Notes under the pieces: model-generated
Database searches by the model: none
The model's input: the letters and a program-made list of their open reading frames with translations, nothing else
What the model was told of the DNA's origin: nothing
Program-made: the position numbers and the translations under genes
Source of the DNA: Eledone cirrhosa
Lineage: Eukaryota
Reading direction: 5' to 3'
DNA length: 64,000 bases
Assembly (NCBI GenBank): GCA_964016885.1
Contig: OZ024757.1
Coordinates: 11,284,001-11,348,000 of the forward strand
Shown: positions 1-60,200 of the stretch, piece after piece
Layout: every line of letters begins with the position of its first letter
Numbering within the stretch: position 1 is the stretch's first letter

Positions 1-199
1 GTGAATAATCGATTGCAAGACTAGTTTTACTGGATATTGTTTGTTTTTTTTCTGAAGATAGACCACCGTCTTTGCAGTTAATAAAGTTTTCACGGAACAT
101 GCTAACTCTGTAATCTATGATGTATTCTACTCTATTATAAATTATCTATTCTAGACGCCCGTATGAACATATTTTCTTGCAGCTGATGGAAATGAGCGT

Positions 200-271
200 A
201 TGGAATTGGTGGGCCCCCTTTAGATCGGATTCCCCCCCCCCCCCTGGCTTTAAAAGCTAGTTACGCCACTG
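200..271 (-). mobile_element. Probable terminus of a non-autonomous DNA transposon (hAT-like TIR)
   Basis: CTAGTTACGCCACTG at 257-271 is CAGTGGCGTAACTAG on the minus strand, next to GGGCCCCC/poly-C subterminal motifs. The partner TIR is not seen in the window. Confidence 0.35.
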
Positions 272-654
272 CTTCCAGCCCGATAAGTTGAGCACTCTAC
301 AGTTTCAGGAAATTAACTAACATACACCATGGACGTTTATGAATTGGATTATTCTATCAAAAATATACTTACTCCTTCCAACAAAATATACCTACTCCTC
401 TACAAAATTCCTTTTTGCCCGTTTTTTGCAGCCTCACTTTCATATTTCCTAAATTTTGTTTTCAAATCCATATTTAATAAAAACACCATGTTATTTATTC
501 CGACGACTGAAGACAGACACATCTGCCTTCAAAAAACCACTGGTAAATGAAATAATTATCTTATGTTGTTTATTACATAACTAATATATATATATATATA
601 TAAGTTAATAAAAACAATGAAATAAAAAAAAGAACAATTCCTTATATTAAAAAA

Positions 655-786
655 TTCATCATTTTACGATCGTTTCTGGGATATATGTGTGTGGTATGTA
701 TATCATGTTAAAGATCTATGTAAAAATTTTACAAATTATCAGAGAAAATATACCTTTACATACATGCTATCTTCAGAAATGGTGAA
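655..786 (-). ncRNA. Type I hammerhead ribozyme motif with long stem II
   Basis: Minus strand reads TTCACCATTT-CTGAAGA-(~95 nt stem II region)-GAAA-C-GATC-G-TA-AAATGATGAA. Stem I pairs, the stem III loop GATC is palindromic, and the cleavage triplet is GUA. Confidence 0.7.
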
Positions 787-908
787 GTATGTTTATTGAA
801 AAAAACACCTATCAACTTGACCTCTAACTCTTTTCCGTTGGTCAATTCAAAACCTGTTCCTAAACAGACTTTTTATATTAATTCTTTGTTTTTTTCAATA
901 AACACATC

Positions 909-1046
909 TCATCATTTCTGAAGACGGCATGTATATGTGAAAGTATGTATATCTTCTCTGATAATTTGTAATATTTTAAAATAGATCTTTAACATGATAT
1001 ATATACCACACACATATATATCCCAGAAACGATTGTAAAATGAGGA
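909..1046 (+). ncRNA. Type I hammerhead ribozyme motif with long stem II
   Basis: TCATCATTT-CTGAAGA(918-924)-(~100 nt)-GAAA(1026-1029)-C-GATT-G-TA-AAATGAGGA. Mirror copy of the 655-786 motif. Confidence 0.65.
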
Positions 1047-1239
1047 ATTTTTTAATATAAGGAACTTGTTCTTTGTTTTTATTTCATTGTTTTTATTCAT
1101 TTATTTTGACTCTGTTTTCCTATGACATTTATCGTAAATTTTTGAATGCATCTTCTCTTTTCACGATATCTTCTATATTTGGATTACATTGAGTTCTTCA
1201 TACGGATTGGACACTACCGTATAGTTTGGTAGATTTATC

Positions 1240-1282
<43 letters not shown>

Positions 1283-1411
1283 GTGAGGTTTTTTTTACAA
1301 AATGAAAAATAACCGGTGTCCTACACGAGTGAAAGTATAAAGAAAAAGAGATGAAATCGAAAATGCAACTGGAGTCTTATTTAAAAAAAAAATATATTTA
1401 TTTATTTGGTT

Positions 1412-1449
1412 CCTTTACCGGTTTCGCAGTTCTTCTGCTTTTCAAAAGG
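1412..1449 (-). ncRNA. Minimal type I hammerhead ribozyme (U3/A8 core variant)
   Basis: Minus strand: CCTT-TTGAAAA-GCAG-aagaa-CTGC-GAAA-C-CG-G-TA-AAGG, then AATAAA. All three stems close. Confidence 0.7.
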
Positions 1450-1745
1450 TGAGTTGAGATGGAGGGTCTGTGGTTTTCTCAGACCCTCCATCTCAACTCA
1501 CCTTTGAAGAGGTCACAGAGTGTGTGACGAAAGAACTATGACAATATATAAACAACTATCTGGTTTTGGAACCAACCAACCAACCAGAAATTTATAAATT
1601 TATTATAAATTTATTATAATAAATTGAAGTGAAAGCAACTGGTGCGTGTGTTTCTTATTGGCAACATGACCCTCCCAAAGTATAACAATATCGGTTTCAA
1701 AACACGATTTCAGATAAAGAATCTTGCTAAACAAATTCAGAAACG

Positions 1746-1796
<51 letters not shown>

Positions 1797-2309
1797 CACA
1801 TATATGTCCTTCTTCCTCTTATGTCGTCTATGGCTGATATCTCTAGCATGTTTATATATATGTCCTTCATTTTCTCTTGAGCTCCCATTCTCCTCCAAAA
1901 GTGTGTGTCTGAGTGTGTAAAATGCAAACCCTGAAAATATTTGTAATGATATAAAAACGAAGGACATGCTAGAAAGAGCAGCTAAATCACATAAAATATT
2001 TAAAAAAAAAAACGAAGGGCAGATATACATGCTAGAAATAGCAGTCAAATACCAACAATCAAGACCAAATAAATTGCACACCCGCAGCATTTTTGTCTCG
2101 ACTTTTGCAATTAAGTAAGACAAGAGTTACCTTTCTTGGCAAACATCTCGGGGGTTTTTTACATTTAATTTTCTATTGTTTAAAATATTTTCACTGATTT
2201 TAAGCCAAAGTTTTTTAATGACTGCCACTTCCGGTTTGTGTTGTGCGTCTACAGGACAGCAGTAAACCTGCTAGAAATAGTAGTCACAGCAACACATATA
2301 TTTATATAT

Positions 2310-2640
2310 CAGGGATTCCCAACGAGGGGTGCACGCCCCACAAGGGGCAATTTGAATATAATAGGGGTCAATATGAAAGTGATATAATACGACCAAACTT
2401 CCAGTTACACTTCGTCTACACATGTTATCGTGTATCGGGCACCTACGAGAAGTTTGTTTAGATTTTGGAGATTGTTTTGATCATCGCTGCATCGTAGCTT
2501 TGTTTAAATAAAGGGTTTCTACTTTATATTACAGTAATAACACCTTTACAAGACTCAGATTGTTTTTATATTAAAGGGGGACATAAACATATTTTAAATG
2601 TTGAGGTGGGGCATGGTGCAGAAAAGGTTGGGGACCAGTG
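2310..2640. mobile_element. hAT/Charlie-type MITE
   Basis: Imperfect TIRs CAGGGATTCCCAAC ... GTTGGGGACCAGTG, flanked by near-identical 8-mers TTATATAT/ATATATAT. Confidence 0.55.
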
Positions 2641-13139: not shown

Positions 13140-14170
13140 CTATTTCTCTCATTTCTCTCCAGCCGTCGCATATCCTCTGCAGTTGCTGCCCATGTCTCAC
13201 TACCATGCAGCATCGCGCTCTTCACACCGGCATCATATAACCAGCCTTTCGTATGCAGGGAGAAACCCTTCTTCGACAGCAGCTCCCTAAACTTCTTCCA
13301 ACCCGTCCTTATTCTAGATACTATGGCCTCTGAACCCCCCCCCCCCCTCCCATGCTAATCTGATCTCCTAGGTACCGGAAGCTATCCACCACTTCTATAG
13401 CACCTGCCTGCATTTGTAAAATGTGTCTATCACTGTGACTTCTACTGTCTAATTTCCCTGTACATCTACTGCATACGTATTTCTCCCTACCTGTTAGTTT
13501 GCCTGCTATCCCGCTACATCTCTTGTGTACCCAGGATCTGCATTGTGCGCATTTTATGGAATTTATGCCAGTTCCTTTTCTGCATATCGAACATGGCCAT
13601 TTCCCTGATGAAATCAGATTTTTGTCCTCTTTTCTACTCATCAACACTTTTGTGTTAGCTAGGTTCACTCTCAGTCCTCTTGCTTCCAACTGCTGTTTCC
13701 ATAGCCAGAATTTATTCTCTAGCTCCTCTACTGATTCTGCTATAAGAACCAGATCATCAGTATAGAGAAGTTCCCATGGACATCCAGTCTTTAGCTCCTC
13801 TGTTATGGCTTGGAGGACTATAATGAACAAGAGTGGGCTGAGGACGGAACCTTGATGTACACCTACTTGCATCTTGAATTCCTCACTAAACTCCATTCCT
13901 ACCCTGTCTTTACTGACAGCACCTCTGTACAAAGTTTGCACTGTCCTCACAAGCCATTCCCCAACACCTAGTTTCCTTAGGGACCACCATGACAGATCGG
14001 GGTACCCTATCAAAGGCCTTCTCTAGGTCAACAAAGGCTAAGTATAGAGTATAGTGGCTTATTCATCTCTAAGAACCTCTCTTGTAATTGTCTCACCAAG
14101 AAGAGCGCATCTGTTGTACTTTTCCCAGACACAAAACCAAACTGCATCTCATCTAGTTTAACCCTTTCAT
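13140..14170 (-). mobile_element. RTE LINE RT fragment (family B), frameshifted
   Basis: MQFGFVSGKSTTDA, GVHQGSVLSPLLF, LLYTDDL, PHD-like Cys cluster, VDSFRYLG. Confidence 0.9.
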
Positions 14171-17861: not shown

Positions 17862-20116
17862 TCAGCATCGTTTAACGTCCATATTCCACGCTTGCATGGG
17901 TTTGGACGGGCGTTTTCCAACTTGAGGCAAGAGTGGTTGTCTTGCTCGCATAGGACTGTCTGGCGGGTTTTCTACGGCTGGATGCCCTTCCTAACACCAA
18001 CCACATTTACAGTGTAGAACTGGGAGGTTTTTACCGTGTTATCTACCATTCACATTACAGCGTGGACCTACACGACCTCATTTGTTTCGGCCTGGATGTT
18101 GTGGTACCAACATAACTTTACATTGAAAGGGGTGGTGTGGATGGGGTGGAGGTAGTGTTACGGGGGTGTATTTTGTTAGAGGTGTCTACTGATTGTATTA
18201 GGTTTTACTTTGTATTTAGGTAAGGCGGGTCTTCTCTATTACTGTGAAGTGCCAAAGATCTCGGTCCAGTGACATTGTCTTGGAGAGGTGTAAGTGTGTG
18301 AGGTCGGAATTTATCAAGTCGTCCCAGGTTTTTCTGGGTCTGCCTACTCTGTGGCTACCGTCTATTTTTATTGTCCTGCACTTTTTTATGCAGCTGCCGT
18401 CTTTCATGCGCATCACGTGACCATACCAACGTAGCCTTCTCTCGAGTAAACAACATCTGATACCTCTTATTTCTAATCTTTCCCTTAGTTCGTTTATGGT
18501 TTGCTGTTCACGTATATTACTATTACACATCCAGCGGAGCATGCAAGCTACGTTCCTCTCTAGTCTGCGTATATCCTCTGCACACAATGCCCAGGTCTCA
18601 GTGCCATGCAACATTGCTGTTCGTATGCAGGCATCATACAGCTTGCCTTTCAATTTAAGGGAAAACCCTTTAGCGGCTAATAGTGGTATAAGCTCTCTGA
18701 ACTTTTTCCATCCAGTTCTGACTCTAGCTATTGTACTTTCAGAGCACCCTCCCCCACTGCTGATTTTGTCACCCAAGTAACGGAAGCTGTCCACTATTTC
18801 TATAGAACCATCTGTGCAATGGAATGTGCTAGTATTCTGTGGGAACTTGCTGCTACTTATTGCACCAGAGCACCGACCACATATAAAATCTATGTTCTTA
18901 GTTAGCTTACTTGTGATCCCACTACATCTTTTATGCACCCATACTTTGCATTTGGGACATAAAATGGAGTTTCTACCTACTCCTTTCCTACACACTGAGC
19001 ATGGTCATTTCCCGGATGGGACCGCCGCCCTATTTTCCTTCCTACAAACTAGAACTTTAGTCTTAGACAGGTTAATTTTAAGGCCTTTTGATTCTAGGCC
19101 ATGCTTCCATGTTTGGAATTTCTTCTCTAGTTCGGCCATTGATTCAGCTATGAGCGTTAGATCATCTGCGTATAGGAGTTCCCATGGGCAGCCGGTCTTG
19201 AACTCCTCTGTTATAGCCTGAAGGGCAATAATAAATAGTAGGGGGATAAGAACGGAGCCCTGATGAACACCAACTTTTACGCTAAACTCTTCACTATATT
19301 CGTTGTTAATTCTAACCTTGCTGACTGTTTCTTTATACATGGCTTGTATAGCTCTCACAAGCCATTCATCAACACCTAGTTTTCTAAGAGCCCAACAGAT
19401 AATGGAACGGGGGACTCTGTCGAAGGCTTTCTCCAAGTCGACAAAAGCTAAGTATAGGGGTTTACTTTTAGCTAGGTACTTCTCCTGTAGTTGTCGTACA
19501 GGTGTCCCACCGTTCCAGAAGCTTTCAACATCTCAGCAACTATTTCCGAAGGCCCAGCCGCCTTACCCTTCTTCATATCTTTGATTGCCTTACTTATTAT
19601 ACTACCTTCGACTAACACTGCTGGTCCCTCTATTGGGTCGATGTGGGGGAGACTGTCTTTCTCCTATTTATTCTCCTCATTTTGTAGCCTTTCGTAGTGA
19701 CACTTCCAAGCTACCTTCTTATCAGCGTCAGTGATGGCAAGTACACGATCATCATTAAGTACACACTTCTCCGCGACAATATCACGGTTTTCCTTGACAC
19801 ATTGCCTAACAATCCTGAACACGTCACGTTTTTGGTCTTTGCGTTGTAGAACATGCTTGAACTTTCTTTCCTCTGCTTCCCTTCTTGCGAAGTACACTTG
19901 TCTCCTAGCTTCCCTCCTGGCCACTTGATAGTCTTCTCTACTTCCCCCATTCCGCCATACATTCCAAGCCTGCTTTTTGGCCTTAATTGACTCCTCCTAC
20001 TGTTCCACCACCATGTTACTCTCCTCCTGCCTATAGGCCTGTTCCAGCCACAGACTTCATCTGCTGCCATCAGCAGGTTTGCTTTCAGGAATTCCCACTG
20101 TTCCTCTATATTGTAC
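17862..20116 (-). mobile_element. RTE LINE (family A), longest copy, 5'-truncated with internal deletion
   Basis: TWWWN, DLEKAFDRV, QGSVL, LLYADD, PHD-like cluster, FRYLG, LRWYGHV, GRPRKTW, 3' UTR. Deletion junction near 19500. Confidence 0.92.
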
Positions 20117-42539: not shown

Positions 42540-45500
42540 AAGAGTTCTAGTCCTTTAGAAGCCATTTCTGCATTAAATATTGTACATACACTACTATTTC
42601 GTTCAAATTAATGAGTTGTAGCACTGTAGAAGCTATTTATCTAATAAATATTGCATATAATCTATTAATACTCTTCAAATTAAAGAGTTCTAATGCAGTA
42701 AAAGCCGTTTCTGTATTAAATATTGCATTCATACTGCTATTTACTACAAATTAAAGAGTTCTTGTCCTTAAGAAGCCATTTCCATATTAAATATGGCATA
42801 TAATGTACTATTTCCTTTGAATTAAAATTTCTAGTCCTTTAGAAGCCATTTCTGCATTAAATATTGCGTATACTCTACCATTTCCTTCGAATTTATGGGT
42901 TCTAGATCTATTGAAGCTGTTTCCCTATTAAATATTGCCTATACTGTACTATTTCCTTTGAATCGACGAGTTCTAGTCTTTTAGAAGCAATTTCTGTATT
43001 AAATATTGCACATACATTACTATTTCCCTCGAATTAATGAGATTTAGTCCTTTAGAAGCCATTTCCGTATTAAATATGGCATATAATCTACTAATACCCA
43101 TCAAATTAAAGAGTTCTACTGCTTGAGAAGCCATTTCTTTATTAAATATGGCATATATACTAGTATTTCCTACAATTATATTAGTTTTACTCCCTTAGAA
43201 TCCAGCCCTTTCTTAAATATTTCTGTATTAAATATGGCATATAATCTACTAATATACTTCATATTAATGACTTCTAGCCCTTTACAAGCCATTTCTGTAT
43301 TAAATATTGCATATAATGTACTATTTCCTTCGAATTAATGAGCTTTTGCCCTTTAGAAGCCATTTCTATATTAAATGTTGCATATAATCTACTAATATCC
43401 TTCAAATCAGTGAGTTTTAGTCCTGTAGAAGCCATTTCTTTATTAAGTATGGCATATATACTACTATTTCCTTCGAATTAATGAGCTTTACTCCTTTAGA
43501 GACCATTTCTGTATTATATGTGGCATATAATCTACTCTTTCCTATGAATTGAAGGTTTCTAGTCTTTTAGAGGCAATTTCTGTATTAAATATAGCATATT
43601 ATCTATTAATGCCCCTCATATTAATCAGTTTCAGCCCTGTAGAAGTTATTTCTGTATTAAATATTGCATATACACTACTATTTCTTTCGAATTAATGAGT
43701 TCTAGCCCTGAGGAATCTATTTACGTATTAAATATTGCATATAATCTATCAATTACCTTCAAATTAAAGAGTTCTAGTGCTTCAGAAGCCATTTCCGTAT
43801 TAAATATTACATATATACTACTATTTCCTCCAAATATATTAGTTCTAGTCCTTTCAGAGTAATTTCTGTATTGAATATTGCATATACTGTACTATTTCCT
43901 TAAAACTAAAGAGTTCTAGTGCTTTAGAAGCCATTTATTTATTAAATATTGCATATACTCTACTATTTCCATCAAATTAAAGAGTCCTAGTATTTTAGAG
44001 ACTATTTCTGTATTAAATATTGTGTATACTCTACTAGTTCCTTCGAATTACTGGTTTCTAGCTCTGCGGAAGCTATTTCTGTATTAAATATTACATATAT
44101 ACTTCTATTTCCTCCAAATATATTAGTTGTCATCCTGTAGAAGACATTTCTGTATTAAATATACGATATATACTACTATTTGATTCGATTTAAAGAGTTC
44201 TAGTCCTTTAGAAGCCATTTCTGTATTAAATATAGCATAAAATCTAGTAATACCCTTCAAATTAATGACTTTCAGCCCTGTAGAAGCCATTTCTGTATTA
44301 AATATTGCATATACACTAATATTTCGTTCAAATTAATGAGTTGTAGCACTGTAGAAGCTATTTATCTATTAAATATAGCATATAATCTATTAATACTCTT
44401 CAAATTAAAGAGTTTTAATCCTGTAGAAGCCGTTTCTGTATTAAATATTGGATTCATACTACTATTTACTACAAATTAAAGAGTTCTTGTCCTTAAGAAG
44501 ACATTTCCATATTAAATATGGCATATAATGTACCAATTCCTTTGAATTAAAATTTCTAGTCCTATAGAAGCCATTTCTGCATTAAATATTGCGCATACTC
44601 TACTATTTCCCTCAAATTTATGGGTTCTAGCTCTGTTGAAGCTGTTTCTCTATTAAATATTGCCTATACTGTACTATTTCCTTTGAATTGACGAGTTCTA
44701 GTCATTTAGAAGCAATTTCTGTATTAAATATTGCACATATATTACTATTTCCCTCGAATTAATGAGCTTTAGTCCTTTAGAAGCCATTTCCATATTAAAT
44801 ATGGCATATAATCTACTAATACTCTTCAAATTAAAGAGTTCTACTGCTTTAGAAGCCATTTCTTTATTAAATATGGCATATATAATAGTATTTCCTACAA
44901 TTATATTAGTTTTACTCCCTTAGAATGCATTCCTTTCTCAAATATTTCTGTATTAAATATGGCATATAATCTACAAATATCCTTCAAATTAATGACTTTT
45001 AGGCCTTTACAATGTATTAATGTATTAAATATTGCATATAATGTAATATTTCCTTCGAATTAATGAGCTTTACTCCTTTAGAGACCATTTCTGTATTATA
45101 TGTGGCATATAATCTACTATTTCCTATGAATTGAAGGTTTCTAGTCTTTTAGAAGCAATTTCTGTATTAAATATAGCATATTATCTATTAATGCCCCTCA
45201 TATTAATGAATTTCAGCCCTGTAGAAGTTATTTCTGTATTAAATATTGCATATACACTACTATTTCCTTCGAATTAATGAGTTCTAGGCCTGAGGAATCT
45301 ATTTACATATTAAATATTGCATATAATCTATTAATATCCTTCAAATTAAAGAGTTCTAGTGCTTCAGAAGCCATTTCCGTATTAAATATTACATATATAC
45401 TACTATTTCCCCCAAATATATTAGTTCTAGTCCTTTGAGAGTAATTTCTGTATTGAATATTGCATATACTGTACTATTTCCTTAAAATTAAAGAGTTCTA

Positions 45501-46860
45501 GTGCTTTAGAAGCCATTTCTGTATTAAATATGGCATATATACTACCAATATCCTTCAAATTAAAGAGTTCTACTGCTTTAGAAGCCATTTATTTATTAAA
45601 TATTGCATTTACTCTACTATTTCCATCAAATTAAAAAGTCCTAGTATTTTAGAGGCCATTTCTGTATTAAATATTGTGTATACTCTACTATTTACTTCGA
45701 ATTACTCGTTTCTAGCTCTGCGGAAGCTATTTCTGTATTAAATATTACATATATACTTCTATTTCCTCCAAATATATTAGTTTTCATCCTGTAGAAGGTG
45801 TTCCTCTATTAAATATACGATATATACTACTATTTGATTCGATTTAAAGAGTTCTAGTCCTTCAGAAGCCATTTCTGTAGTAAATATGACATATAATCTA
45901 ATAATACCCCTGTGGCAGTTGTCTCCCTTGTTGTGACTCACAACCCCAATAGATTAACAACATCTAGACGGGAAGTAGAACCCTTTCTGTAACTTCCGGT
46001 CAGAACCCTATAAAACTAACAACTTTAAGTTCTCACTCTCTCATTTGCCCTTCCGGCATCTGGCCTTCGCCAGGCGTCTTCTGCCAGCCCGCGTTTGCCT
46101 GGCAATCAAAACGGTAACTACTAACTTTGTTTCATTCTTTCGTTTATTCATTGACATGTCAACTATACTGTTAACTTGTTGATTAAATATTATACACACA
46201 AACCATGTCTCTTTGTTACATTCATACACACCAGTACACCGCTAGAGTTCTTCGCTATACCCCTCATATTAATGAGTTTTAGTCTTGTAGAACCAATTTC
46301 TGTATTAAATAATTCATATATACTACTATTTGATTCAAATTAAAGAGTTCTAGTCCTTTAGAACCCATTTCTGTATTAAATATGGCATATAATCTACTAA
46401 TACCCCTCATATTAATGAGTTTTAGTCTTGTAGAAGCCATTTCTGTATTAAATATGGCATATATACTACTAATACACCTCATATTAATGAGATTTTAGTC
46501 TTGTAGAAGGCATTTCTGTAGTAAATATTGCATATATACTACTATTTGATTTGAATTGAAGAGTTTTAGTCATTTAGAACCCATTTCCGTATTAAATATG
46601 GCATATAATCTACTAATACCCCTCATATAAATGAGTTTTAGTCTTGTAGAAGCCTTTTTCTGTATTAAATATTGGATATACAGTATATTTCCATCTAATT
46701 AAAGAGATCTCTTCATTTAGAAGCCATTTGCGTATTAAATATGGCATATAATCTACTAATACTCCTCATATTAATGAGTTTTAGTCTTGTAGAAGCCATT
46801 TCTGTATTAAATATTGCATATATACTACAATTTCATTCTAATTAAAGAGTTCTAGTCCTT
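42540..46860. repeat. ~71-bp AT-rich satellite with ~1.7-kb higher-order repeat
   Basis: TTAAAGAGTTCTAGTCCTTTAGAAGCCATTTCTGTATTAAATATTGCATA... with period 70-72. The variant run at 42601 recurs at 44326. Confidence 0.95.
45911..46259 (+). mobile_element. Solo LTR (Gypsy-related) inserted in the 71-bp satellite
   Basis: TGTGGC...GCTATA ends, CCCC TSD on both sides, TATAAAA. Shares CTCCCTTG, AGAC.GGAAGTAG, ACTTCCGGTCA and GTACACCG with the 36132 LTR. Confidence 0.85.
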
Positions 46861-46865
46861 ATATA

Positions 46866-48070
46866 CAGCTACCTAGAGTACAGACCTCAGAGAGACACAG
46901 AGCCACCTAGGGTACAGACCTCAGACAGACACAGAGCCACCTAGGGTAAAGACCTCAGAGAGAGACCCAGTCACCTAGGGTACAGACCTCAGACAGACAC
47001 AGAACCACCTAGGGTACAGACCTCAGAGAGACACCCAGTCACCTAGGGTACAGACCTCAGAGAGACATAGAGCCACCTAGGGTACAGACCCCAGAGAGAC
47101 ACAGAGCCACCTAGGGTACAGACCTCAGAGAGACACCCAGTCACCTAGGGTACAGACCTCAGACAGACACAGAACCACCTAGGGTACAGACCTCAGAGAG
47201 ACACAGAGTCACCTAGGGTACAGACCTCAGAGAGACACAGAGTCACCTAGGGTACAGACCTCAGAGAGACATAGAGCCACCTAGGGTACAGACCTCAGAG
47301 AGACACCCAGTCACCTAGGGTACAGACCTCAGAGAGACATAGAGCCACCTAGGGTACAGACCTCAGAGAGTCACAGAGCCACCTCGGGTACAGATCTTAG
47401 AGAGACACAGAGATACCTAGAGTACAGACCTCAGGGAGACATAGGGCCACCTAGGGTACAGACCTCAGAGAGACACACTGCCACCTAGGGAACAGACCTC
47501 AGACAGACACAGAACCACCTAGGGTACAGACCTCAGAGAGACACAGAGTCACCTAGGGTACAGACCTCAGAGAGACACCCAGTCACCTAGGGTACAGACC
47601 TCAGAGAGACACAGAGTCACCTAGGGTACAGACCTCAGAGAGACACCCAGTCACCTAGGGTACAGACCTCAGAGAGACACCCAGTCACCTAAGGTATAGA
47701 TCTTAGAGAGACACAGAGTCACCTAGGGTACAGACCTCAGACAGACACAGTGCCACATAGGGTACAGACCTCAGGGAGACACAGAGTCACCTAGGGTACA
47801 GATCTTAGAGAGACACAGAGCCACCTAGGGTACAGACCTCAGACAGAGACAGAGCCACCTAGGGTACAGACCTCAGGGAGACACAGAGTCACCTAGGGTA
47901 CAGATCTTAGAGAGACACAGAGCCACCTAGGGTACATACCTCAGTGAGACATCCAGTCACCTAGGGTACAAACCTCAGAGAGACACAGATCCACCTAGGG
48001 TACAGACCTCGGGGAGACATAGGGCCACCTAGGGTACAGAGAGACAGACAACCAGCTAGAGTACAGACAT
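46866..48070. repeat. 34-bp minisatellite, ~35 copies
   Basis: CTAGGGTACAGACCTCAGAGAGACACAGAG(C/T)CAC. Confidence 0.96.
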
Positions 48071-48219
48071 CAGATTGGTACATTACTGAACTTTAAAGTA
48101 TCGCAGTTTTATACAGGGCTGGTGCTACCATGAAGGCCAACTAGGGTACATTACAGAACCTTAAGGACATACTTAGTTCCCCTGCAACAATATAATATAC
48201 ACATTACCTAGTCTGGTAT

Positions 48220-51200
48220 TATGAAGGCCCTGAACAAGAAAGTTAAAGGTACACTTAATACACAGTGGTGTTAGGAAGGCCCTGAACAAGGATGTTAAAA
48301 TCTACACTCTGTACACAGTAATGTTAGAAGGACCTCAACAAGGATATAAAATGGTACACTTAGTACACAATAATGTTAGGAAGGCCCTGAACAAGGATAT
48401 CCAAATATACACTTAGTACACAGTAATGTTAGGAAGGCCCTGAACAAGGATATAAAATGCTACACTCAGTACACAGTAATGTTAGGAAGGCCCTGAAAAA
48501 GGATATAAAATGCTACACTTAGTACAAAGTAATGGTAGGAAGGGCCTGAACAAGGATATCAAAATCTACACTTAGTACACAGGAATGTTAGGAATGCCCT
48601 GAACAAGGATATCCAAGTCTACACTTAGTACACAGTAATGTTAGGAAGGCCCTGAACAAGGATATACAAATCTACACTCAGTACACAGTAATGTTAGGAA
48701 GGCCCTGAACAAGGATATAATATGCTACACTTAGTACACAGTAATGTTAGGTAGGCCCTGAACAAGAATATAAAATGCTACATATAATACACAATAATGT
48801 TAGGAAGGCCCTGAACAAGGATATAATATGCTACACTTAGTACACAGTAATGTTAGGTAGGCCCTGAACAAGAATATAAAATGCTACATATAATACACAG
48901 TAAATTTAGGAAGGCCCTGAACAAGGATATCCAAATCTACACTTAGTACACAGTAATGTTAGGTAGACCCTGAACAAGGATATAAAATGCTACACTTAGT
49001 ACACAGTAATGATAGGAAGGCCCTGAACAAGTATATCAAAATGTATGCTTACAACACAGTGGTGTTAGGAAGGCCCAGAACAAGGATATAAAATGCTACA
49101 CTTAAAACATAGTAATGATAGGAAAGCCCTGAACAAGGATATCCAAATCAACACTCAGTTCACAGTAATGTCAGGAAGGCCTTGAACAAGGATATGATAT
49201 GCAACACTTAGTACACAGCAATGTTAGGAAGGCCCTGAACAAGGATATAACATGCTACACATAGTACAACATGGTGTTAGGAAGGCCCTCAACAAGGATA
49301 TAAAATGCTACACTTACAACGCAGTGGTGTTAGGAAGCCACTGAACAAGGATATCCAAATCAAAACTCAGTAGACAGTAATGATAAGAATGCCCTGAACA
49401 AGGATATAAAATGCTACACTCAGTACACAGTAATGTTAGGAAGGCCCCGAAAGAAAATAGAAAATGCTACACATAGTACACAGTAATGTTAGGAAGGCCT
49501 GAACAAGGATGTTAAAATCTACACTCAGTACACAGTAATGTTAGGAAGGCCCTGAACAAGGATAAAAAATGCTACACTTAGTATACAGTAATGTTAGGAA
49601 GGCCCTGAACAATGATATCCAAATCTACACTTAGTACACAGTGGTGTTACGAAGGGCCTGAACAAGGATATCCAAATGTACACTTAGTAAACAGTAATGT
49701 TAGGAAGGCCCTGAACAGGGATATAACATTTTACACTCAGTACACAGTAATGATAGGAAGGTCCTGAACAAGGATATCCAAATCTACACTTACAACACAG
49801 TAATGGTAGGAAGGCCCTGCACAAGGATATCCAAATATACACTTAGTACACAGTAATGTTAGGAATGCCCTGAACAAGGATATAAAATGCTACACTCAGT
49901 ACACAGTAATGTTAGGAAGGCCCTGACCAAGGATATAAAATGCTACACTTAGTACAAAGTAATGGTAGGAAGGGCCTGAACAAGGATATCAAAATCTACA
50001 CTTAGTACACAGGAATGTTAGGAATGCCCTGAACAAGGATATCCAAATCTACACTTAGTACACAGTAATGTTAGGAAGGCCCTGAACAAGGATATCCAAA
50101 TCTACACTCAGTACACAGTGATGTTAGGAAGGCCCTGAACAAGGATATTCAAATCTACACTTAGTACACAGTAATGTCACGAAGGCCCTGAACAAGGATA
50201 TAATATGCTACACTTAGTACACAGTAATGTTAGGTAGGCCCTGAACAAGGATATAATATGCTACACTTAGTACACAGTAATGTTAGGTAGGCCCTGAACA
50301 AGAATATAAAATGCTACATATAATACACAATAATGTTAGGAAGGCCCTGAACAAGGATATAATATGCTACACTTAGTACACAGTAATGTTAGGTAGGCCC
50401 TGAACAAGAATATAAAATGCTACATATAATACACAGTAATGTTAGGAAGGTCCTGAACAAGGATATCCAAATCTACACTTAGTACACAGTAATGTTAGGA
50501 AGACCCTGAACAAGGATATAAAATGCTACACTTAGTACACAGTAATGATAGGAAGGCCCTGAACAAGTATATCAAAATGTATGCTTACAACACAGTGGTG
50601 TTAGGAAGGCCCAGAACAAGGATATAAAATGCTACACTTAAAACATAGTAATGTTAGGAAAGCCCTGAACAAGGATATCCCAATCAACACTCAGTTCACA
50701 GTAATGTCAGGAAGGCCTTGAACAAGGATATGATATGCAACACTTAGTACACAGCATTGTTAGGAAGGCCCTGAACAAGGATATAAAATGCTACACATAG
50801 TACAACATGGTGTTAGGAAGGCCCTCAACAAGGATATAAAATGCTACACTTACAACACAGTGGTGTTAGGAAGCCACTGAACAAGGATATCCAAATCAAA
50901 ACTCAGTAGACAGTAATGATAGGAATGCCCTGAACAAGGATATAAAATGCTACACATAGTACACAGTAATGTTAGGAAGGCCCTGAACAAGGATAAAAAA
51001 TGCTACACTTAGTATACAGTAATGTTAGGAAGGCCATGAACAATGATATCCAAATCTACACTCAGTACACAGTGGTGTTACGAAGGGCCTGAACAAGTAT
51101 ATCCAAATGTACACTTAGTAAACAGTAATGTTAGGAAGGCCCTGAACAGGGATATAACATTTTACACTCAGTACACAGTAATGATAGGAAGGTCCTGAAC

Positions 51201-54200
51201 AAGGATATCCAAATCTACACTTAGTACACAGCAATGTTAGGAAGGCCCTGAACAAGGATATAAAATGTTACACTTAGTACACAGTAATGTTAGGAAGGCC
51301 CTGAACAGGGATATAACATTTTACACTCAGTACACAGTAATGATAGGAAGGTCCTGAACAAGGATATCCAAATCTACACTTAGTACACAGCAATGTTAGG
51401 AAGGCCCTGAACAAGGATATAAAATGTTACACTTAGTACACAGTAATGTTAGGAAGGCCCTGAACAAGGATATCAAAATCTACACATACAACACAGTGGT
51501 GTTAGGAAGGCCCAGAATAAGGGTGTTAAAATGTACACTCAGTACACAGTAATTTCAGGAAGACCCTGAACAAGGATATCCAAATCTACACTCAGTACAC
51601 AGTAATGTTAGGAAGGCCCTGAACAAGGATATCCAAGTCTAAACCCAGTACACAGTAATGATAGGAAGGCCCTGAACAAGTATATCCAAATCTACACTTA
51701 GTACACAGTTATGTTAGGAAGGCCCTGAACAAGGATATAAAATGCTACACTCTGTTCACAGTAATGTCAGGAAGGCCTTGAACAAGGATATAACATGCAA
51801 CACTTAGTACATAGCAATGTTACGAAGACCCTGAACAAGGATATTCAAATCTACACTTAGTACACAGTAATGTCAGGAAGGCCCTGAACAAGGATATAAT
51901 ATGCTACACTTAGTACACAGTAATGTTAGGTAGGCCCTGAACAAGAATATAAAATGCTACACATAATACACAGTAATGATAGGAAGGCCCTGAACAAGAA
52001 TATAAAAATGTACACTTACAACACAGTGGTGTTAGGAAAGCCCAAAACAAGGATGTTAAAATCTACATTCAGTACACAGTAATGTTAGGAAAGCCCTGAA
52101 CAAGGATATCCCAATCTACACTCAGTTCACAGTAATGTCAGGAAGGCCTTGAACAAGGATATAATATGCAACACTTAGTACACAGCAATGTTAGGAAGGC
52201 CCTGAACAAGCATATAAAATGCTACATATAGCACAACATGGTGTTAGGAAGGCCCTCAACAAGGATATAAAATGCTACACTTACACCGCAGTGGTGTTAG
52301 GAAGCTTCTGAACAAGGATATCCAAACCTAAACTCAGTAGACAGTAATGATAGAAATGCCCTGAACAAGGATATAAAATGCTACACTCAGTACACAGTAA
52401 TGTTAGGAAAGCCCTGAAAGAAAGTAGAAAATGCTACACTCAGTACACACTAATGTTAGGAAGGCCCTGAACAAGGATATCCAAATCTAAACTCAGTACA
52501 CAGTAATGATAGGAAGGCCCTGACCAAGTATATCCAAATCTACACTTAGTACACAGTTATGTTAGGAAGGCCCTGATCAAGGATATAACATTTTACACAT
52601 AGTACACAGTAATAATAGGAAGGCCCTGAACGAAGGATATCAAAATCTACACTTGCAACACAGTGGTGTTAGGAAGGCCCAGAACAAGGATGTTAAAATG
52701 TACACTCAGTACACAGTAATGTCAGGAAGGCCCTGAATAAGGATATCCAAATCTACACTCAGTACACAGTAATGTTAGGAGGGCCCTGAACAAGGATATC
52801 CAAATCTAAACTCAGTACACAGTAATGATAGGAAGGACCTGAACAAGGATATCCAAAGCTACACTTAGTAAACAGTAATGTTGGGAAGGCCCTGAACAAG
52901 GATATAACATTTTACACTTAGTACACAGTAATGGTAGGAAGGCCCTGAACAAGGATATCAAAATCTATACTTACAACACAGTGGTGTTAGGAAGGCCAAG
53001 AACAAGGATGTTAAAATGTACACTTATTACACAGTAATGTCAGGAAGGCCCTGAACAAGGATATAATATGCTACACTTAGTACACGGCAATGTTAGGAAG
53101 GCTCTGAAAAAGGATATAAAATGCTACACATAGTACAATGTGGTGTTAGGAAGGCCCTCAACAAGGATATAAAATGCTACACTTACAACGCAGTGGTATT
53201 AGGAAGCCCCCAAGCAAGGATATCCAAATCTAAACACAGTACACAGTAATGATAGGAATGCCCTGAACAAGGATGTTAAAATCTACACTCAGTACACAGT
53301 AATGTTAGGAAGGCCCTGAACAATGATATCCAAATCTACACTTAGTACACAGTGGTGTTAGGAAGGCCCTGAACAAGGATATCCAAATCTACACTTACAA
53401 CTGAGTGGTGTTAGGAACGCCCAGAACAAGGATGTTAAAATGTACACTCAGTACACAGTAATGTCAGGAAAGCCCTGAACAAGGATATCCAAATCTACAC
53501 TCAGTACATAGTAATGTTAGGAAGACCCTGAACAAGGATATCCAAATCTAAACTCAGAACACAGTAGTGATAGGAAAGGCCTGAACAAGTATATCAAAAT
53601 CTACACTTAGTACACAGTTATGTTAAGAAGGCCCTGAACAAGGATATAACATTTTACACTTAGTACACAGTAATGGTAGGAAGGCCCTGAACAAGGATAT
53701 CAAAATCTACACTTGCAACACAGTAATGGTAGGAAGGCCCTGAACAAGGATATCAATATCTACAAATACAACACAGTGGTGTTAGGAAGGCCCAGATCAA
53801 GGATGTTAACATCTACATTGTGTACACAGTAACGTTAAGAAGGCTCAGAATAAGTATATAAAATGCTACACTTAAAACACAGTAATGTTAGGAAAGCACT
53901 GAACAAGGATATCCAAATCTACACTCAGTTCACAGTAATGTCAGGAATGCCCTGAACAAGGATATTATATGCAACACTTAGTACACAGCAATTTTAGGAA
54001 GGCCCTGAACAAGGATATAAAATGCTACACATAGTACAATGTGGTGTTAGGAAGGCCCTGAACACGGATATAAAATGCTACTCTTACAACGTAGGTGTGT
54101 TACGAAGGCCCTGATCAAGGATATCCAAATCTACAATTACAACACAGTCATGTTAGGAAGGCCCAGAACAAGGATGTTAAAATGTACACTCAGTACACAG

Positions 54201-57200
54201 TGATGTCAGGAAGGCCCTGAAGAGGGATATCGAAATCTACACTCAGTACACAGTATTGTTAGGAAGGCCCTGAACAAGGATATCCAAATCTACACTCTGT
54301 AGACAGTAATGATAGTAAGGCCCTGAAGAAGGATATAACATGTTACACTTAGTACACAGTAATGGTAGGAAGGCCCTGAACAAGGATATCAAAATCTACA
54401 CTTACAACACAGTGTTGTTAGGAAGGCCCAGAACAAGGATGTTAAAATGTACACTCAGTACACAGTGATATCAGGAAGGCCCTGAAGAAGGATATCCAAA
54501 TCTACACTCAGTACACAGTATTATTAGGAAGGCCGTGAACAAGGATATCCAAATCTACACTCAGTAGACAGTAATGATAGAAATGCCCTGAACAAGGATA
54601 TAAAATGCTACACTTAGTACACAGTAATGTTAGGAAGGCCCTGAACAAGGATATAACATTTTACACTCAGTAGACAGTAATCATAGGAAGGTCCTGAACA
54701 AGGATATCCAAATCTACACTTACAACACAGTGGTGTTAGGGAGACGCAGAACAAGGATGTTAAAATGTGCACTGAGTAGACAGTAATGTCAGGAAGGCCC
54801 TGAATAAGGATATCCAAAGGTACACTCAGTACAGAGTAATTTTAGATAGGCCCTGAACAAGGATATCCAAATCTACACTTAGTACACAGTTATGTTAGGA
54901 AGGCCCTGAACAAGGATATCAAAATCTACACACAGTACACAGTAATGTTAGGAAGGCCCTGAACAAGGATATCCAAATCTAAACTCAGTAGACAGTAGTG
55001 ATAGGAAAGGCCTGAACAAGGATATCCAAATCTACACTTAGTAAACAGTAATGTTAGGAAGGCACTGAACAAGGATATAACATTTTACACTCAGTACACA
55101 GTAATGATAGGAAGGTCCTAAACGAGGATATCCAAATATACACTTACAACACAGTGGTGTTAGGAAGACGCAGAACAAGGATGGTAAAATGTGCACTGAG
55201 TAGACAGTAATGTCAGGAAGGCTCTGAACGAGGATATCCAAAGCTACACTCAGTACACAGTAATGTTAGGTAGGCCCTAAACAAGGATATCCAAATCTAA
55301 ACTCAGTACACAGTAAGGATAGGAAGGCCCTGAACTAGGATATCCAAATCTACACTTAGTACACAGTTATGTTAGGAAGGCCCTGAACAAGGATATAAAA
55401 GGCTACACTCTGTACACAGTGGTGTTAGTAAGGCCCTGAACACGGATTTGCAAATCTACACTTAGTAAAGAGTAATGTTAGGAAGGCACTAAACAAGGAT
55501 ATAACATTTTACACTTAGTACACAGTAAGGATAGGAAGGTCCTGAACAAGGATATCCAAATCTACACTTACAACACAGAGTTGTTAGGAAGACGCAGAAC
55601 AAGGATGTTAAAATGTGCATTGAGTAGACAGTAATGTCAGGAAGGCCCTGAATAAGGATATCCAAATCTACACTTAGTGCAGAGTAATGATAGGAAGGCC
55701 CTGAACAAGGATATCAAAATCTACACTTGCAACACAGTAATGGTAGGAAGGCCCTGAACAAGGATATCAATATCTACAAATACAACACAGTGGTGTTAGG
55801 TAGGCCCAGATCAAGGATGTTAAAATCTATATTCTGTACACAGTAACGTTAAGAAGGCTCAGAATAAGTATATAAAATGCTACACTTAAAACACAGTAAT
55901 GTTAGGAAAGCACTGAACAAGGATATCCCAATCTACACTCAGTTCACAGTAATGTCAGGAAGGCCCTGAACAAGGATATAATATGCAACACTTAGTACAC
56001 AGCAATTTTAGGAAGGCCCTAAACAAGGATATAAAATGCTACACATAGTACAACGTGGTGTTAGGAAGGCCCTGAACACGGATATAAAATGCTACTCTTA
56101 CAACGTAGTGGTGTTACGAAGGCCCTGATCAAGGATATCCAAATCTACAATTACAACACAGTCATGTTAGGAAGGCCTAGAACAAGGATATCCAAATCTA
56201 CACTTAGTACACAGTTATGTTAGGAAGGCCCTCAACAAGGATATCAAAATCTACACTTACAACAGAGTGGTGTTAAGAAGGGCCAGAACAAGGATGTTAT
56301 AATGTACACTCAGTACACAGTAATGTCTGGAAAGCCCTGAATAAGGATATCCAAATCTACAGTCAGTACACAGTATTGTTAGGAAGGCCCTGAACAAGGA
56401 TATCCAAATCTACACTCAGTAGACAGTAATGATAGGAAGGCCCTGAACAAGGATATAACATGTTACACTTAGTACACAGTAATTGTAGGAAGGCCCTGAA
56501 TAAGGATATCAAAATCTACACTTACAACACAGTGTTGTTAGGAAGGCCCAGAACAAGGATGTTAAAATATACACTCAGTACACAGTGATGTCAGGAAGGC
56601 CCTGAAGAAGGATATCCAAATCTACACTCAGTACACAGTATTGTTAGGAAGGTCCTGAACAAGGATATCCAAATCTACACTCAGTAGACAGTAATGATAG
56701 AAATGCCTTGAACAAGGATATAAAATGCTACACGTAGTACACAGTAATGTTAGGAAGGCCCTGAACAAGGATATAACATTTTACACTCAGTACACAGTAA
56801 TGATAGGAAGGTCCTGAACAAGGATATCCAAATCTACACTTACAACACAGTGGTGTTAGGAAGGCGCAGAACAAGGATGTTAAAATATGCACTGAGTAGA
56901 CAGTAATGTCAGGAAGGCCCTGAATAAGGATATCCAAAGCTACACTCAGTACAGTGTAATTTTAGATAGGCCCTGAACAAGGATATCCAAATCTAAACTC
57001 AGTACACAGTAATGATAGGAAGGCCCTGAACAAGGATATCCAAATCTACACTTAGTACACAGTTATGTTAGGAAGGCCCTGAACAAGGATATCAAAATCT
57101 ACACTTACAACAGAGTGGTGTTAAGAAGGGCCAGAACAAGGATGTTAAAATGTACAATCAGTACACAGTAATGTCTGGAAAGCCCTGAATAAGGATATCC

Positions 57201-60200
57201 AGATCTACACTCAGTACACAGTAATGTTAGGAAGGCCCTGAACAAGGATATCCAAATCTAAACTCAGTACACAGTAGTGATAGGAAAGGCCTGAACTAGG
57301 ATATCCAAATCTACACTTAGTACACAGTGGTGTTAGGAAGGCCCTGAACAAGGATATCCAAATCTACACTTAGTAAACAGTAATGTTAGGAAGGCAATAA
57401 ACAAGGATATAACATTTTACACTTAGTACACAGTATTGCTAGGAAGGCCCTGAACAAGGATATCAAAATCTACACTTACAACAGAGTGGTGTTAGGAAGG
57501 CCCAGATCAAGGATGTTAAAATCTACATTCTGTACACAGTAACGTGAAGAAGGCTCAGAATAAGTATATAAAATGCTACACTTAAAACACAGTAATGTTA
57601 GGAAAGCACTGAACAAGGATATCCCAATCTACACTCAGTTCACAGTAATGTCAGGAAGGCACTGAACAAGGATATTATATGCAACACTTAGTACACAGCA
57701 AATTTAGGAAGGCCCTGAACAAGGATATAAAATGCTACACATAGTACAACGTGGTGTTAGGAAGGCCCTGAACAAGGATATAAAATGCTACTCTTACAAT
57801 GTAGTGGTGTTACGAAGGCCCTGATCAAGGATATCCAAATCTACAATTACAACACAGTCATGTTAGGAAGGCCCAGAACAAGGATGTTAAAACGTACACT
57901 CAGTACACAGTGATGTCAGAAAGGCCCTGAAGAAGGATATCCAAATCTACACTCAGTACACAGTATTGTTAGGAAGGCCCTGAACAAGGATATCCAAATC
58001 TACACTCAGTAGACAGTAATGATAGGAAGGCCCTGAACAAGGATATAACATGTTACACTTATTACACAGTAATGGTAGGAAGGCCCTGAACAAGGATATC
58101 AAAATCTACACTTACAACACAGTGTTGTTAGGAAGGCCCAGAACAAGGATGTTAAAATGTACTCTCAGTACACAGTGATGTCAGGAAGGCCCTGAAGAAG
58201 GATATCCAAATCTACACTCAGTACACAGTATTGTTAGGAAGGCCCTGAACAAGGATATCCAAATCTACACTCAGTAGACAGTAATGATAGAAATGCCTTG
58301 AACAAGGATATAAAATGCTACACGTAGTACACAGTAATGTTAGGAAGGCCGTGAACAAGGATATAACATTTTACACTCAGTACACAGTAATGATAGGAAG
58401 GTCCTGAACAAGGATATCCAAATCTACACTTACAACACAGTGGTGTTAGGAAGGCGCAGAACAAGGATGTTAAAATATGCACTGAGTAGACAGTAATGTC
58501 AGGAAGGCCCTGAATAAGGATATCCAAAGCTACACTCAGTACAGTGTAATTTTAGATAGGCCCTGAACAAGGATATCCAAATCTAAACTCAGTACACAGT
58601 AATGATAGGAAGGCCCTGAACAAGGATATCCAAATCTACACATAGTACACAGTTATGTTAGGAAGGCCCTGAACAAGGATATCAAAATCTACACTTACAA
58701 CAGAGTGGTGTTAAGAAGGGCCAGAACAAGGATGTTAAAATGTACAATCAGTACACAGTAATGTCTGGAAAGCCCTGAATAAGGATATCCAGATCTACAC
58801 TCAGTTCACAGTAATGTTAGGAAGGCCCTGAACAAGGATATCCAAATCTAAACTCAGTACACAGTAGTGATAGGAAAGGCCTGAACTAGGATATCCAAAT
58901 CTACACTTAGTACACAGTGGTGTTAGGAAGGCCCTGAACAAGGATATCCAAATCTACACTTAGTAAACAGTAATGTTAGGAAGGCAATAAACAAGGATAT
59001 AACATTTTACACTTAGTACACAGTATTGCTAGGAAGGCCCTGAACAAGGATATCAAAATCTACACTTACAACAGAGTGGTGTTAGGAACGCCCAGAACAA
59101 GGATGTTAAAATGTACACTCAGTACACAGTAATGTCAGGAAAGCCCTGAACAAGGATATCAAAATCTAAACTCAGTACACAGTAGTGATAGGAAAGGCCT
59201 GAACAAGGATATCCTAATCTACACTTAGTACACAGTTATGTTAGGAAGGCCCTGAACAAGGATATAATATTTTACACTTAGTACACAGTAATGGTAGGAA
59301 GGCCCTGAACAAGGATATCAAAATCTACACTTGCAACACAGTAATGGTAGGAAGGCCCTGAACAAGGATATCAATATCTACAAATAGAACACAGTGGTGT
59401 TAGGAAGGCCCAGATCAAGGATGTTAAAATCTATATTCTGTACACAGTAACGTTAAGAAGGCTCAGAATAAGTATATAAAATGCTACACTTAAAACACAG
59501 TAATGTTAGGAAAGCACTGAACAAGGATATCCCAATCTACACTCAGTTCACAGTAATGTCAGGAAGGCACTGAACAAGGATATTATATGCAACACTTAGT
59601 ACACAGCAAATTTAGGAAGGCCCTGAACAAGGATATCAAAATCTACACACAGTACACAGTAATGTTAGGAAGGCCCTGAACAAGGATATCCAAATCTAAA
59701 CTCAGTAGACAGTAGTGATAGGAAAGGCCTGAACAAGGATATCCAAATCTATACTTAGTAAACAGTAATGTTAGGAAGGCACTGAACAAGGATATAACAT
59801 TTTACACTCAGTACACAGTAATGATAGGAAGGTCCTAAACGAGGATATCCAAATATACACTTACAACACAGTGGTGTTAGGAAGACGCAGAACAAGGATG
59901 GTAAAATGTGCACTGAGTAGACAGTAATGTCAGGAAGGCTCTGAACGAGGATATCCAAAGCTACACTCAGTACACAGTAATGTTAGGTAGGCCCTAAACA
60001 AGGATATCCAAATCTAAACTCAGTACACAGTAAGGATAGGAAGGCCCTGAACTAGGATATCCAAATCTACACTTAGTACACAGTTATGTTAGGAAGGCCC
60101 TGAACAAGGATATAAAAGGCTACACTCTGTACACAGTGGTGTTAGTAAGGCCCTGAACACGGATTTGCAAATCTACACTTAGTAAACAGTAATGTTAGGA

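What the first reader, a model, noticed from the sequence alone, without database searches (positions are those of the whole stretch)
606..1098. Foldback with two hammerheads carrying an unusually long (~100 nt) stem II
Both arms have a canonical CTGAAGA and GAAA-C-GAT(C/T)-G-TA core closed by a 9-10 bp stem I. The two core halves are separated by ~95-100 nt of imperfectly self-complementary (TA/CA-rich) sequence, which standard descriptors with short stem II limits would miss. The arms have visibly diverged elsewhere while CTGAAGA, GAAA and the GUA triplet are kept in both.
Basis: partly seen in the sequence, partly recalled or inferred. Interest (0 to 1): 0.7.

Follow-up and report, generated by a model that had tools for sequence, protein, structure and literature searches.

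The report
Penelope ends with oversized hammerhead ribozymes
This fold-back is two truncated tail ends of a Penelope-type jumping gene pasted head to head, a known layout, but each carries a predicted self-cutting hammerhead RNA whose second arm is about four times longer than in its published relatives and is kept base-paired across thousands of copies in this genome.

Summary
Both arms (601-807 minus, 808-1242 plus) carry CUGAAGA and GAAAC-GAU(C/U)-GUA, 93 and 101 nt apart; the predicted cut follows 1037. The arms are 5'-truncated 3' ends of a Penelope-like retrotransposon with Hydra-clade protein motifs, inserted head to head into (TA)n. That layout is published and common here (14 head-to-head pairs among 100 listed matches). 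The long stem II is a family trait, not a one-off: 6,419 genomic matches at 88-112 nt spacing against 5 controls, with compensatory changes in stems I and II (0/500 shuffles). Published Hydra-clade hammerheads have 12-26 nt there, and Rfam misses this one. Stem III is the palindrome ACGAUCGU, so cleavage would need a dimer. The two arms are not a working pair: a read-through RNA has one in sense and zips into a -252 kcal/mol hairpin, and both copies are decaying. Cleavage is untested, no RNA run was listed, and genomic 5' ends do not pile up at the cut site. The scan has noted long-stem-II Penelope hammerheads in this genome before. Verdict: new variant of a known kind.

The parts
585..601 (.). 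(TA)n target tract left of the insertion
   Evidence: sequence; family ends run into (TA)n
601..807 (-). Left arm: inverted, more strongly 5'-truncated copy of the element's 3' end (pLTR), ending about 63 nt past the predicted cut site
   Evidence: BLAST to family loci covers 600-807 in reverse
655..786 (-). Hammerhead motif of the left arm: stem I 786-777/664-655, CUGAAGA 776-770, 93-nt stem II (damaged by small deletions), GAAA 676-673, palindrome ACGAUCGU, predicted cut after 665
808..1242 (+). Right arm: 5'-truncated 3' end of the element with the longer 'tail' end (about 205 nt past the cut). Bases 808-884 are 3' UTR present only in this arm and form the loop of the fold-back
   Evidence: matches L031:6310-6745, downstream of RT and GIY-YIG, at 93%
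909..917 (+). Stem I, 5' strand
   Evidence: pairs with 1038-1046; covaries across families
918..924 (+). Core CUGANGA; position 7 is A, G, C or U in relatives
925..1025 (+). 101-nt stem II: C.A, 2 bp, C.C, 11-bp helix (929-939/1011-1021), then an inner helix and a small apical hairpin
943..984 (+). GT...AG stretch of 42 nt inside stem II that resembles a short intron (unsupported lead)
   Evidence: sequence; 0 precisely spliced copies found for the one junction pattern tried
1026..1037 (+). GAAA, palindromic stem III region (ACGAUUGU here, ACGAUCGU in the family) and GUA triplet; predicted cut after A1037
   Evidence: self-duplex -5.8 kcal/mol here, -10.0 in the family
1038..1046 (+). Stem I, 3' strand
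1101..1242 (+). Tail: homologous to the 5' UTR that precedes the ORF in a full-length relative
   Evidence: 72% over 139 nt to L118:5302-5171; ORF start region
1243..1276 (.). (TA)n target tract right of the insertion

Best explanation
The fold-back is two 5'-truncated 3' ends of a Penelope-like retrotransposon with Hydra-clade protein motifs, joined head to head in a (TA)n tract, and each end carries a type I hammerhead motif with a base-paired ~100-nt stem II that likely cut the parent element's RNA as a dimer. Shown: element identity and layout, copy number, pairing with compensatory changes, palindromic stem III. Inferred: an intact element's RT-endonuclease copied uncut RNA from two internal start points (about 63 and about 200 nt past the cut site) and joined the two cDNAs. 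In the parent, two sense hammerheads (two direct pLTRs or two transcripts) would pair through ACGAUCGU to complete stem III, probably slowly and with help from the element's protein. The long stem II is likely a distal extension of the same basal module seen in a 30-nt sister family, kept paired by selection but outside the catalytic core. The two copies in this window are likely dead passengers.
For: Element: the repeat lies sense and about 0.9-2.7 kb downstream of a GIY-YIG-type domain in many loci. L031 is inverted copy, RT, EN, direct copy; L118 is hammerhead, ORF, hammerhead in direct repeat. L118's ORF has RRMRWR, DKT, YRDD, a CxCX5C linker, no CCHH, and CxxC and CxH around the conserved E and N, as PMC8557442 describes for Hydra. 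ESM Atlas neighbours of the L031 ORF include RVT_1-bearing eukaryotic clusters (30-48% of members, a lead). Layout: 14 head-to-head pairs within 7 kb among the 100 listed matches, against 1 tail-to-tail and 1 direct; published in PMC4209133, PMC8557442 and PMC3846280. Ribozyme: two copies found by BLAST without imposing the core (72-73% identity) keep all core letters except the free position 7. On 20 aligned copies 86% of cells pair and 15 of 23 pairs change on both sides (0 of 500 shuffles; slid controls 30-43%). Stem II pair 2 is GC in 28 and AU in 30 of 68 family A copies, and pair 7 is GC 22, AU 31, GU 13. Stem I is UUUA/UAAA-type in A and B, AACA/UGUU in C, UCCA/UGGA in D. For an intact copy (L008) two open-core folds plus the palindrome duplex sum to -89.0 against -86.4 kcal/mol for two monomer minimum folds; for the window's right arm the order is reversed, -61.2 against -66.8 (rough additive estimate).
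Against: No cleavage was measured. The monomer minimum-energy folds are inactive: in the right arm UUUCUG pairs with CAGAAA across the core, -33.4 against -28.4 kcal/mol for the hammerhead. Genomic 5' ends are not clearly enriched at the cut site: 18 truncated of 39 matches there, against about 12 of 25 at a control site 8 nt downstream (15 flagged by script; two are not true truncations and one locus is counted twice). Family A lacks the usual G10.1-C11.1 pair. Family G (8 copies) has lost stem I next to the core yet still spread, so mobility may not need cleavage. The shuffle test ignores relatedness, and family B is out of register in alignment A1. Pfam found no RT or GIY-YIG family in the ORFs. 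Clade assignment is by motifs, not by a tree with reference elements.
Confidence: 0.8

Rival explanations
1. The hammerhead core in this lineage is a catalytically silent relic. The long stem II and its surroundings are kept as a structural signal for the element's protein (RNA binding or choice of RT start), not for cutting.
For: Inactive monomer folds; non-canonical 10.1-11.1 position and a fixed C.C mismatch; family G spread without an adjacent stem I; no pile-up of 5' ends at the cut. PMC11167929 reports that hammerhead mutants of an anole element still insert in vitro (passages).
Against: All invariant core letters are kept while position 7 and H17 vary freely (A, C, G, U; A, C, U) across families whose spacers are only about 50-75% alike. 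That pattern is expected of selection on catalysis. U.U at 10.1-11.1 occurs in natural hammerheads (PMC3088659 passage), and U/U or C/A flanks occur in the published PLE table.
Confidence: 0.12
2. Stem II is long because it contains a short spliceosomal intron (943-984, GT...AG, 42-45 nt), so that splicing shortens the arm and switches the ribozyme.
For: Family A has AG|GTATGT and TTTTACATAG|; family G has TAG|GTAAAT, a TAACTAAC branch-like word and CTTACATAG|. ACATAGAT is among the best-kept stretches of alignment A1. An intron touching the hammerhead is published for Drosophila virilis Penelope (PMC4209133).
Against: 0 precisely spliced genomic copies for the family A junction pattern, although these elements tend to keep introns. 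The same words are helix partners (GGUAUGUAU/AUACAUACC). 42 nt is very short for an intron (recalled). Families D and E show no such pair of signals (by eye).
Confidence: 0.08
3. The fold-back itself is a functional double-hammerhead device, or a hairpin-RNA gene selected at this locus.
For: The fold-back with its flanks recurs at 94-97% in at least five other places (L002-L006; L007 in part), and its junction is multicopy in an independent sample. A read-through RNA would give about 210 bp of double strand.
Against: The hammerheads are on opposite strands and the hairpin (-252 kcal/mol) buries them. Sister copies carry core or stem damage (AAGATTG in L004 and L006, ATGATTG in L005). The layout is frequent genome-wide. 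The duplication includes 2 kb of unrelated flank.
Confidence: 0.04

Closest known systems
Hydra clade of C-terminal-endonuclease Penelope-like elements and their hammerheads (Craig et al. 2021, PMC8557442; passages, supplement parts 1, 2 and 52 of 59; includes Hydra-1_Obim)
   Same: RWK-like, DKT, CxCX5C, CxxC and CxH motifs, no CCHH, (TA)n insertion, sense hammerhead near the 3' end, inverted 5'-truncated copy at the 5' end, unpaired or variable letters flanking stem II.
   Different: The 26 Hydra rows of File S2 have 12-26 nt between the cores and a 3-4 bp stem III; the longest PLE row in that table has about 54 nt. Here the spacer is 93-108 nt, stem III is 2 bp with a GAUC loop, and the 3' UTR is 1-2.5 kb, giving a unit of about 4.1 kb (L118) against under 3 kb.
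[quoted passage not shown]
   Same: Type I topology, palindromic stem III implying dimer cleavage, mostly solo copies from truncated elements, and pairs 100-700 bp apart on opposite strands.
   Different: Their 'larger than usual' helix II is 7-8 bp with G10.1-C11.1. Here it is a ~100-nt rod (families A, B, C) or a two-hairpin branch (family D) with a variable first pair and a fixed C.C mismatch in A and B.
Poseidon element PAc of Anolis (PMC11167929; passages)
   Same: Two 3' end points downstream of the hammerhead cut (optional tail), implying copying from uncut RNA.
   Different: Its tail is 30-40 nt and its ORF starts inside stem II. Here the tail is about 140 nt, and in the full-length relative L118 the ORF starts about 290 nt past the cut.
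Animal non-LTR retrozymes (bioRxiv 10.64898/2026.07.22.740005, part 1 of 5; PMC7229834, search listing only)
   Same: Short non-coding sequence with a type I hammerhead, mobilised by PLE enzymes.
   Different: Retrozymes are tandem arrays of non-coding monomers. This sequence continues directly into the 3' UTR and ORF of a coding element.

Membership tests
Type I hammerhead ribozyme | CUGANGA and GAAA cores with NUH triplet | tested here: met
   N7 and H17 vary across families
Type I hammerhead ribozyme | Open stem I flanking the core | tested here: met
   8 of 9 and 9 of 10 pairs in the arms; covariation; absent next to the core in family G
Type I hammerhead ribozyme | Stem II closing next to the core | tested here: met
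   Closes with C.A or U-A, 2 bp, C.C, then 7-11 bp, with compensatory changes; not the canonical G10.1-C11.1
Type I hammerhead ribozyme | Stem III (stable, or palindromic for a dimer) | tested here: met
   A-U, C-G and a 4-nt loop; 8-bp self-duplex
Type I hammerhead ribozyme | Match to an Rfam hammerhead model | tested here: not met
   0 hits at gathering score in the window; expected for a 100-nt stem II, so it bears on detection only
Type I hammerhead ribozyme | Self-cleavage at the NUH site | not testable with these tools
   no RNA holder listed; indirect 5'-end test inconclusive
Penelope-like element (EN+) | Single ORF with RT and C-terminal GIY-YIG-type endonuclease | tested here: met
   in relatives L031, L118, L132 by motifs and order; Pfam gave no hit; absent from the window copy itself
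Penelope-like element (EN+) | Direct and inverted pLTRs, optional tail | tested here: met
   L118 direct, L031 inverted plus direct; family A ends peak at 60-79 nt (27 of 73) and 180-219 nt (28 of 73) past the cut
Hydra clade | RWK, DKT, CxCX5C linker, no CCHH, CxxC and CxH motifs | tested here: met
   L118 translation against the description in PMC8557442
Hydra clade | (TA)n insertion | tested here: met
Hydra clade | RT phylogeny with reference Hydra elements | not tested
Non-LTR retrozyme | Tandem non-coding monomers, each with a hammerhead | tested here: not met
   1 direct pair within 7 kb among 100 listed matches, and it brackets an ORF

The most novel reading that the evidence does not exclude
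A whole branch of Penelope-like elements has built a ~100-nt regulatory domain into hammerhead stem II, either a retained mini-intron or a docking site for the element's own protein, that decides whether the RNA is cut or copied; such ribozymes would be widespread in animal genomes but invisible to current descriptors.
Probability: 0.15. Interest if true: 0.75.

Novelty: new variant of a known kind. Interest (0 to 1): 0.45.

Why it matters
Descriptor searches for element hammerheads use short spacers (7-17 nt in the core-only search of PMC8557442), and Rfam finds nothing in this window. For this stem III type, 6,419 genomic matches have an 88-112 nt spacer and only 136 have 8-40 nt, so hammerhead counts in such genomes can be far too low, and elements scored as lacking a hammerhead deserve a re-search. 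The families also form a natural series (about 20, 30, 95-108 nt; rod or branched) on a shared basal module, which suits a direct test of what stem II does in retroelement ribozymes. The fold-back itself is ordinary.

Tried and rejected
Rfam scan of the window: 0 hits. A shorter hammerhead using GAAA at 939-942: rejected, since it is absent from the left arm and from the family (GAAG or GTAG) and gives no stem I. RNA evidence: no RNA holder listed; the contigs laid (2 of 3 runs, one sample) say nothing on expression. Spliced genomic copies: 0 for one junction pattern. 5' ends at the cut site, a lead from note e1-8664355: 18 of 39 against about 12 of 25 at a control site, no clear excess. Metagenome scan for the family A/B/E pattern: 0 matches. 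PDB sequence search with the RT: nothing relevant. Endonuclease tree of 20 rows: A, A2, B and G group at 100/98, while the D rows fall outside in an open fork with short-spacer families; one or two origins of the long stem cannot be told, no clade test was run, and hammerheads were assigned to endonucleases by proximity. Family C's near-identical copies are not independent: they are one element end carried inside a hAT-like transposon. The permutation test (26 clusters; stem I 4.5 against 3.3 pairs, p = 0.0046; basal stem II -10.8 against -7.0 kcal/mol, 0 of 20,000) includes deletion derivatives and one false upstream core (L148), so it is only indicative. Among 15 older singletons the position-by-position stem II pairing was little better than cross controls. 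Lunse et al. 2017 on dimer cleavage was not held; only its citation and a review passage (PMC6765202) were seen.

Full report
Observation. The window begins with a fold-back whose arms (about 601-807 and 885-1101) match at 190 of 220 aligned columns, between two (TA)n tracts. On the plus strand: stem I 909-917/1038-1046, CTGAAGA 918-924, a 101-nt spacer, GAAA 1026-1029, CGATTG, and TA with the predicted cut after 1037. On the minus strand the same order runs from 776 to 665 with a 93-nt spacer. Rfam finds nothing in the window. The right arm folds well (z = -3.57), the left arm weakly (z = -1.44). The junction at 807/808 is also present, in many copies, in contigs of two runs from one sample, so it is not an assembly artefact.

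What it belongs to. The window lies in a 3.0-Gb genome; its size and repeats suggest an octopus-like animal, which is my inference and was not tested. The arm is a dispersed repeat (1,915 first-look candidates, 40 scored). Family homology covers 809-1104 or 809-1243 and ends in (TA)n. Longer loci show the parent. L031 reads inverted copy, RT, endonuclease, direct copy. L118 has two direct copies 4.1 kb apart around a broken ORF. That ORF shows RRMRWR, DKT, YRDD, a CxCX5C linker, no CCHH, and CxxC and CxH around the conserved E and N, the features that PMC8557442 gives for the Hydra clade of Penelope-like elements (passages). Pfam gave no RT or GIY-YIG hit; ESM Atlas neighbours include RVT_1-bearing eukaryotic clusters. 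No tree with reference elements was built.

The fold-back is ordinary. The right arm is the element's 3' end from 808 to 1242. The left arm is a shorter inverted copy that starts at the junction. The loop (808-884) is simply 3' UTR that only one arm retains. Among the 100 matches listed, 14 neighbouring pairs within 7 kb are head to head (7 of them under 500 bp apart, 1 between different families), against 1 tail to tail and 1 direct. Inverted truncated copies, optional tails and opposite-strand hammerhead pairs 100-700 bp apart are published (PMC8557442, PMC3846280 passages, PMC4209133 parts 1-2). Family A copies end mainly 60-79 nt (27 of 73) or 180-219 nt (28 of 73) past the cut site; the left arm has the short end and the right arm the long one. 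The tail is the 5' UTR of the next unit. Both ends lie beyond the cut, so the template was uncut RNA, as reported for an anole element (PMC11167929 passages). A transcript through the locus has one hammerhead in sense and folds into a -252 kcal/mol hairpin.

The long stem II is real. CTGANGA-N(x)-GAAACGATCGTH has 6,419 matches for x = 88-112 (control 5), 309 for 41-87 (control 15) and 136 for 8-40 (control 7). These counts impose the core and one stem III sequence, so they do not prove conservation. Unbiased evidence: two copies found by BLAST at 72-73% identity keep every invariant core letter and change position 7 or H17. A protein-anchored search retrieved a sister family (endonuclease about 40% identical) in which 12 of 30 loci showed a hammerhead within the DNA held, all with a 30-31 nt spacer and the same basal layout of first pair, GG/CC, C.C and helix. 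Among fetched loci, 160 distinct long-spacer copies form 26 clusters. In anchored register, family A pairs at 86-100% over 12 of its first 14 stem II positions; pair 2 splits GC 28 / AU 30 and pair 7 GC 22 / AU 31 / GU 13 of 68. Family B has G-C at five positions (5, 6, 7, 10 and also pair 2) where most A copies have A-U or U-A, and U-A for A-U at position 11. Positions 1 (C.A) and 4 (C.C) stay unpaired in both. On 20 aligned copies (18 chosen as non-redundant plus the two arms; 4 of 22 candidates dropped: one with a false upstream core, one with a deletion, one duplicate of the window's left arm and one near-duplicate of family C), 86% of cells pair and 15 of 23 pairs change on both sides, with 0 of 500 shuffles as high and slid controls at 30-43%. 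That test ignores relatedness, and family B is partly out of register. Stem I changes sequence between families while staying paired. Family D has a branched, two-hairpin stem II, and its endonucleases fall outside the A/B/G group, so the enlargement may have happened more than once; this is unresolved.

Mechanism. Stem III is two base pairs with a four-base loop inside the palindrome ACGAUCGU, which self-pairs at -10.0 kcal/mol; the right arm's C-to-T change leaves it at -5.8 through G-U pairs. By the published model (PMC4209133; review passage in PMC6765202), two sense copies complete each other's stem III. Monomer minimum-energy folds are inactive, in the right arm because UUUCUG pairs with CAGAAA. 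A rough sum favours the dimer for an intact copy (-89.0 against -86.4) but not for the window's right arm (-61.2 against -66.8). I therefore infer slow, dimer-dependent and perhaps protein-assisted cleavage in the parent element, and no activity at this locus. The role of the extension is inferred only: selection keeps it paired, most simply so that the basal module stays folded or so that the element's protein can bind.

Results against. No cleavage or expression data exist here. Genomic 5' ends show no clear excess at the cut (18 of 39 matches, against about 12 of 25 at a site 8 nt downstream). Family G spread without a stem I next to the core. A possible 42-nt intron inside stem II found no spliced genomic copy. 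Older singleton copies give little position-wise support.

Comparison with print. The 26 Hydra rows in File S2 of PMC8557442 have 12-26 nt between the cores, and the longest PLE row has about 54 (counted by hand). 'Long helix II' means 6-8 bp in PMC13725137 (passages) and 7-8 bp in PMC4209133. Eight searches of the held library showed no natural ~100-nt stem II in a retroelement hammerhead. Subscription papers, Lunse et al. 2017, repeat libraries and most supplements were not seen. The scan's own notes report long-stem-II Penelope or retrozyme hammerheads elsewhere in this genome; none matched this sequence.

Verdict. A real, abundant and covarying variant of a known ribozyme in a known retroelement clade, seen in an ordinary inverted insertion. 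New variant of a known kind; interest 0.45.

Noticed in passing
window 1-271; L034:3795-8270: Right end of a hAT-like DNA transposon (DUF4371 ORF at L034:5204-7925; terminal repeat at about 255-271). It carries a diverged long-stem-II hammerhead end (L034:4670-5088) as a passenger, present in about 16 copies at 95-99% identity.
   Followed up: partly
window 272-2600; L002-L007: The fold-back with about 2 kb of flank recurs at 94-97% in at least five other places. In those copies a 23-bp unit from 360-408 is expanded into a minisatellite.
   Followed up: partly
L116, L118, L189 (family G): The strand that should form stem I lies about 9 nt away from CUGAUGA, so this family has no stem I next to the core although the core is intact.
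   Followed up: partly
L045, L122, L172 (family D): A 95-98 nt stem II that branches into two hairpins, with a 4-bp stem I.
   Followed up: partly
L035:2211-2654 (-) and L214-L243: An abundant sister family (at least 150 endonuclease matches at 88-100%) with a 30-nt stem II and stem III region AUAUGUAU.
   Followed up: partly
L118 ORF: Long Asn/Thr-rich stretches between the RT thumb and the endonuclease, recalling the N-rich inserts of rotifer Penelope elements (PMC3846280 passage).
   Followed up: no
window 1445-1505: A second short inverted repeat (61 nt, 88%).
   Followed up: no
window 13321-14022 and 18216-19004 (-): Retroelement fragments with RVT_1 and PHD-finger matches.
   Followed up: no
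window 42540-64000: Large satellite blocks: 71/143-bp units (42540-46857), 34-bp units (46867-48040) and a 53-bp unit in about 298 copies (48219-64000).
   Followed up: no
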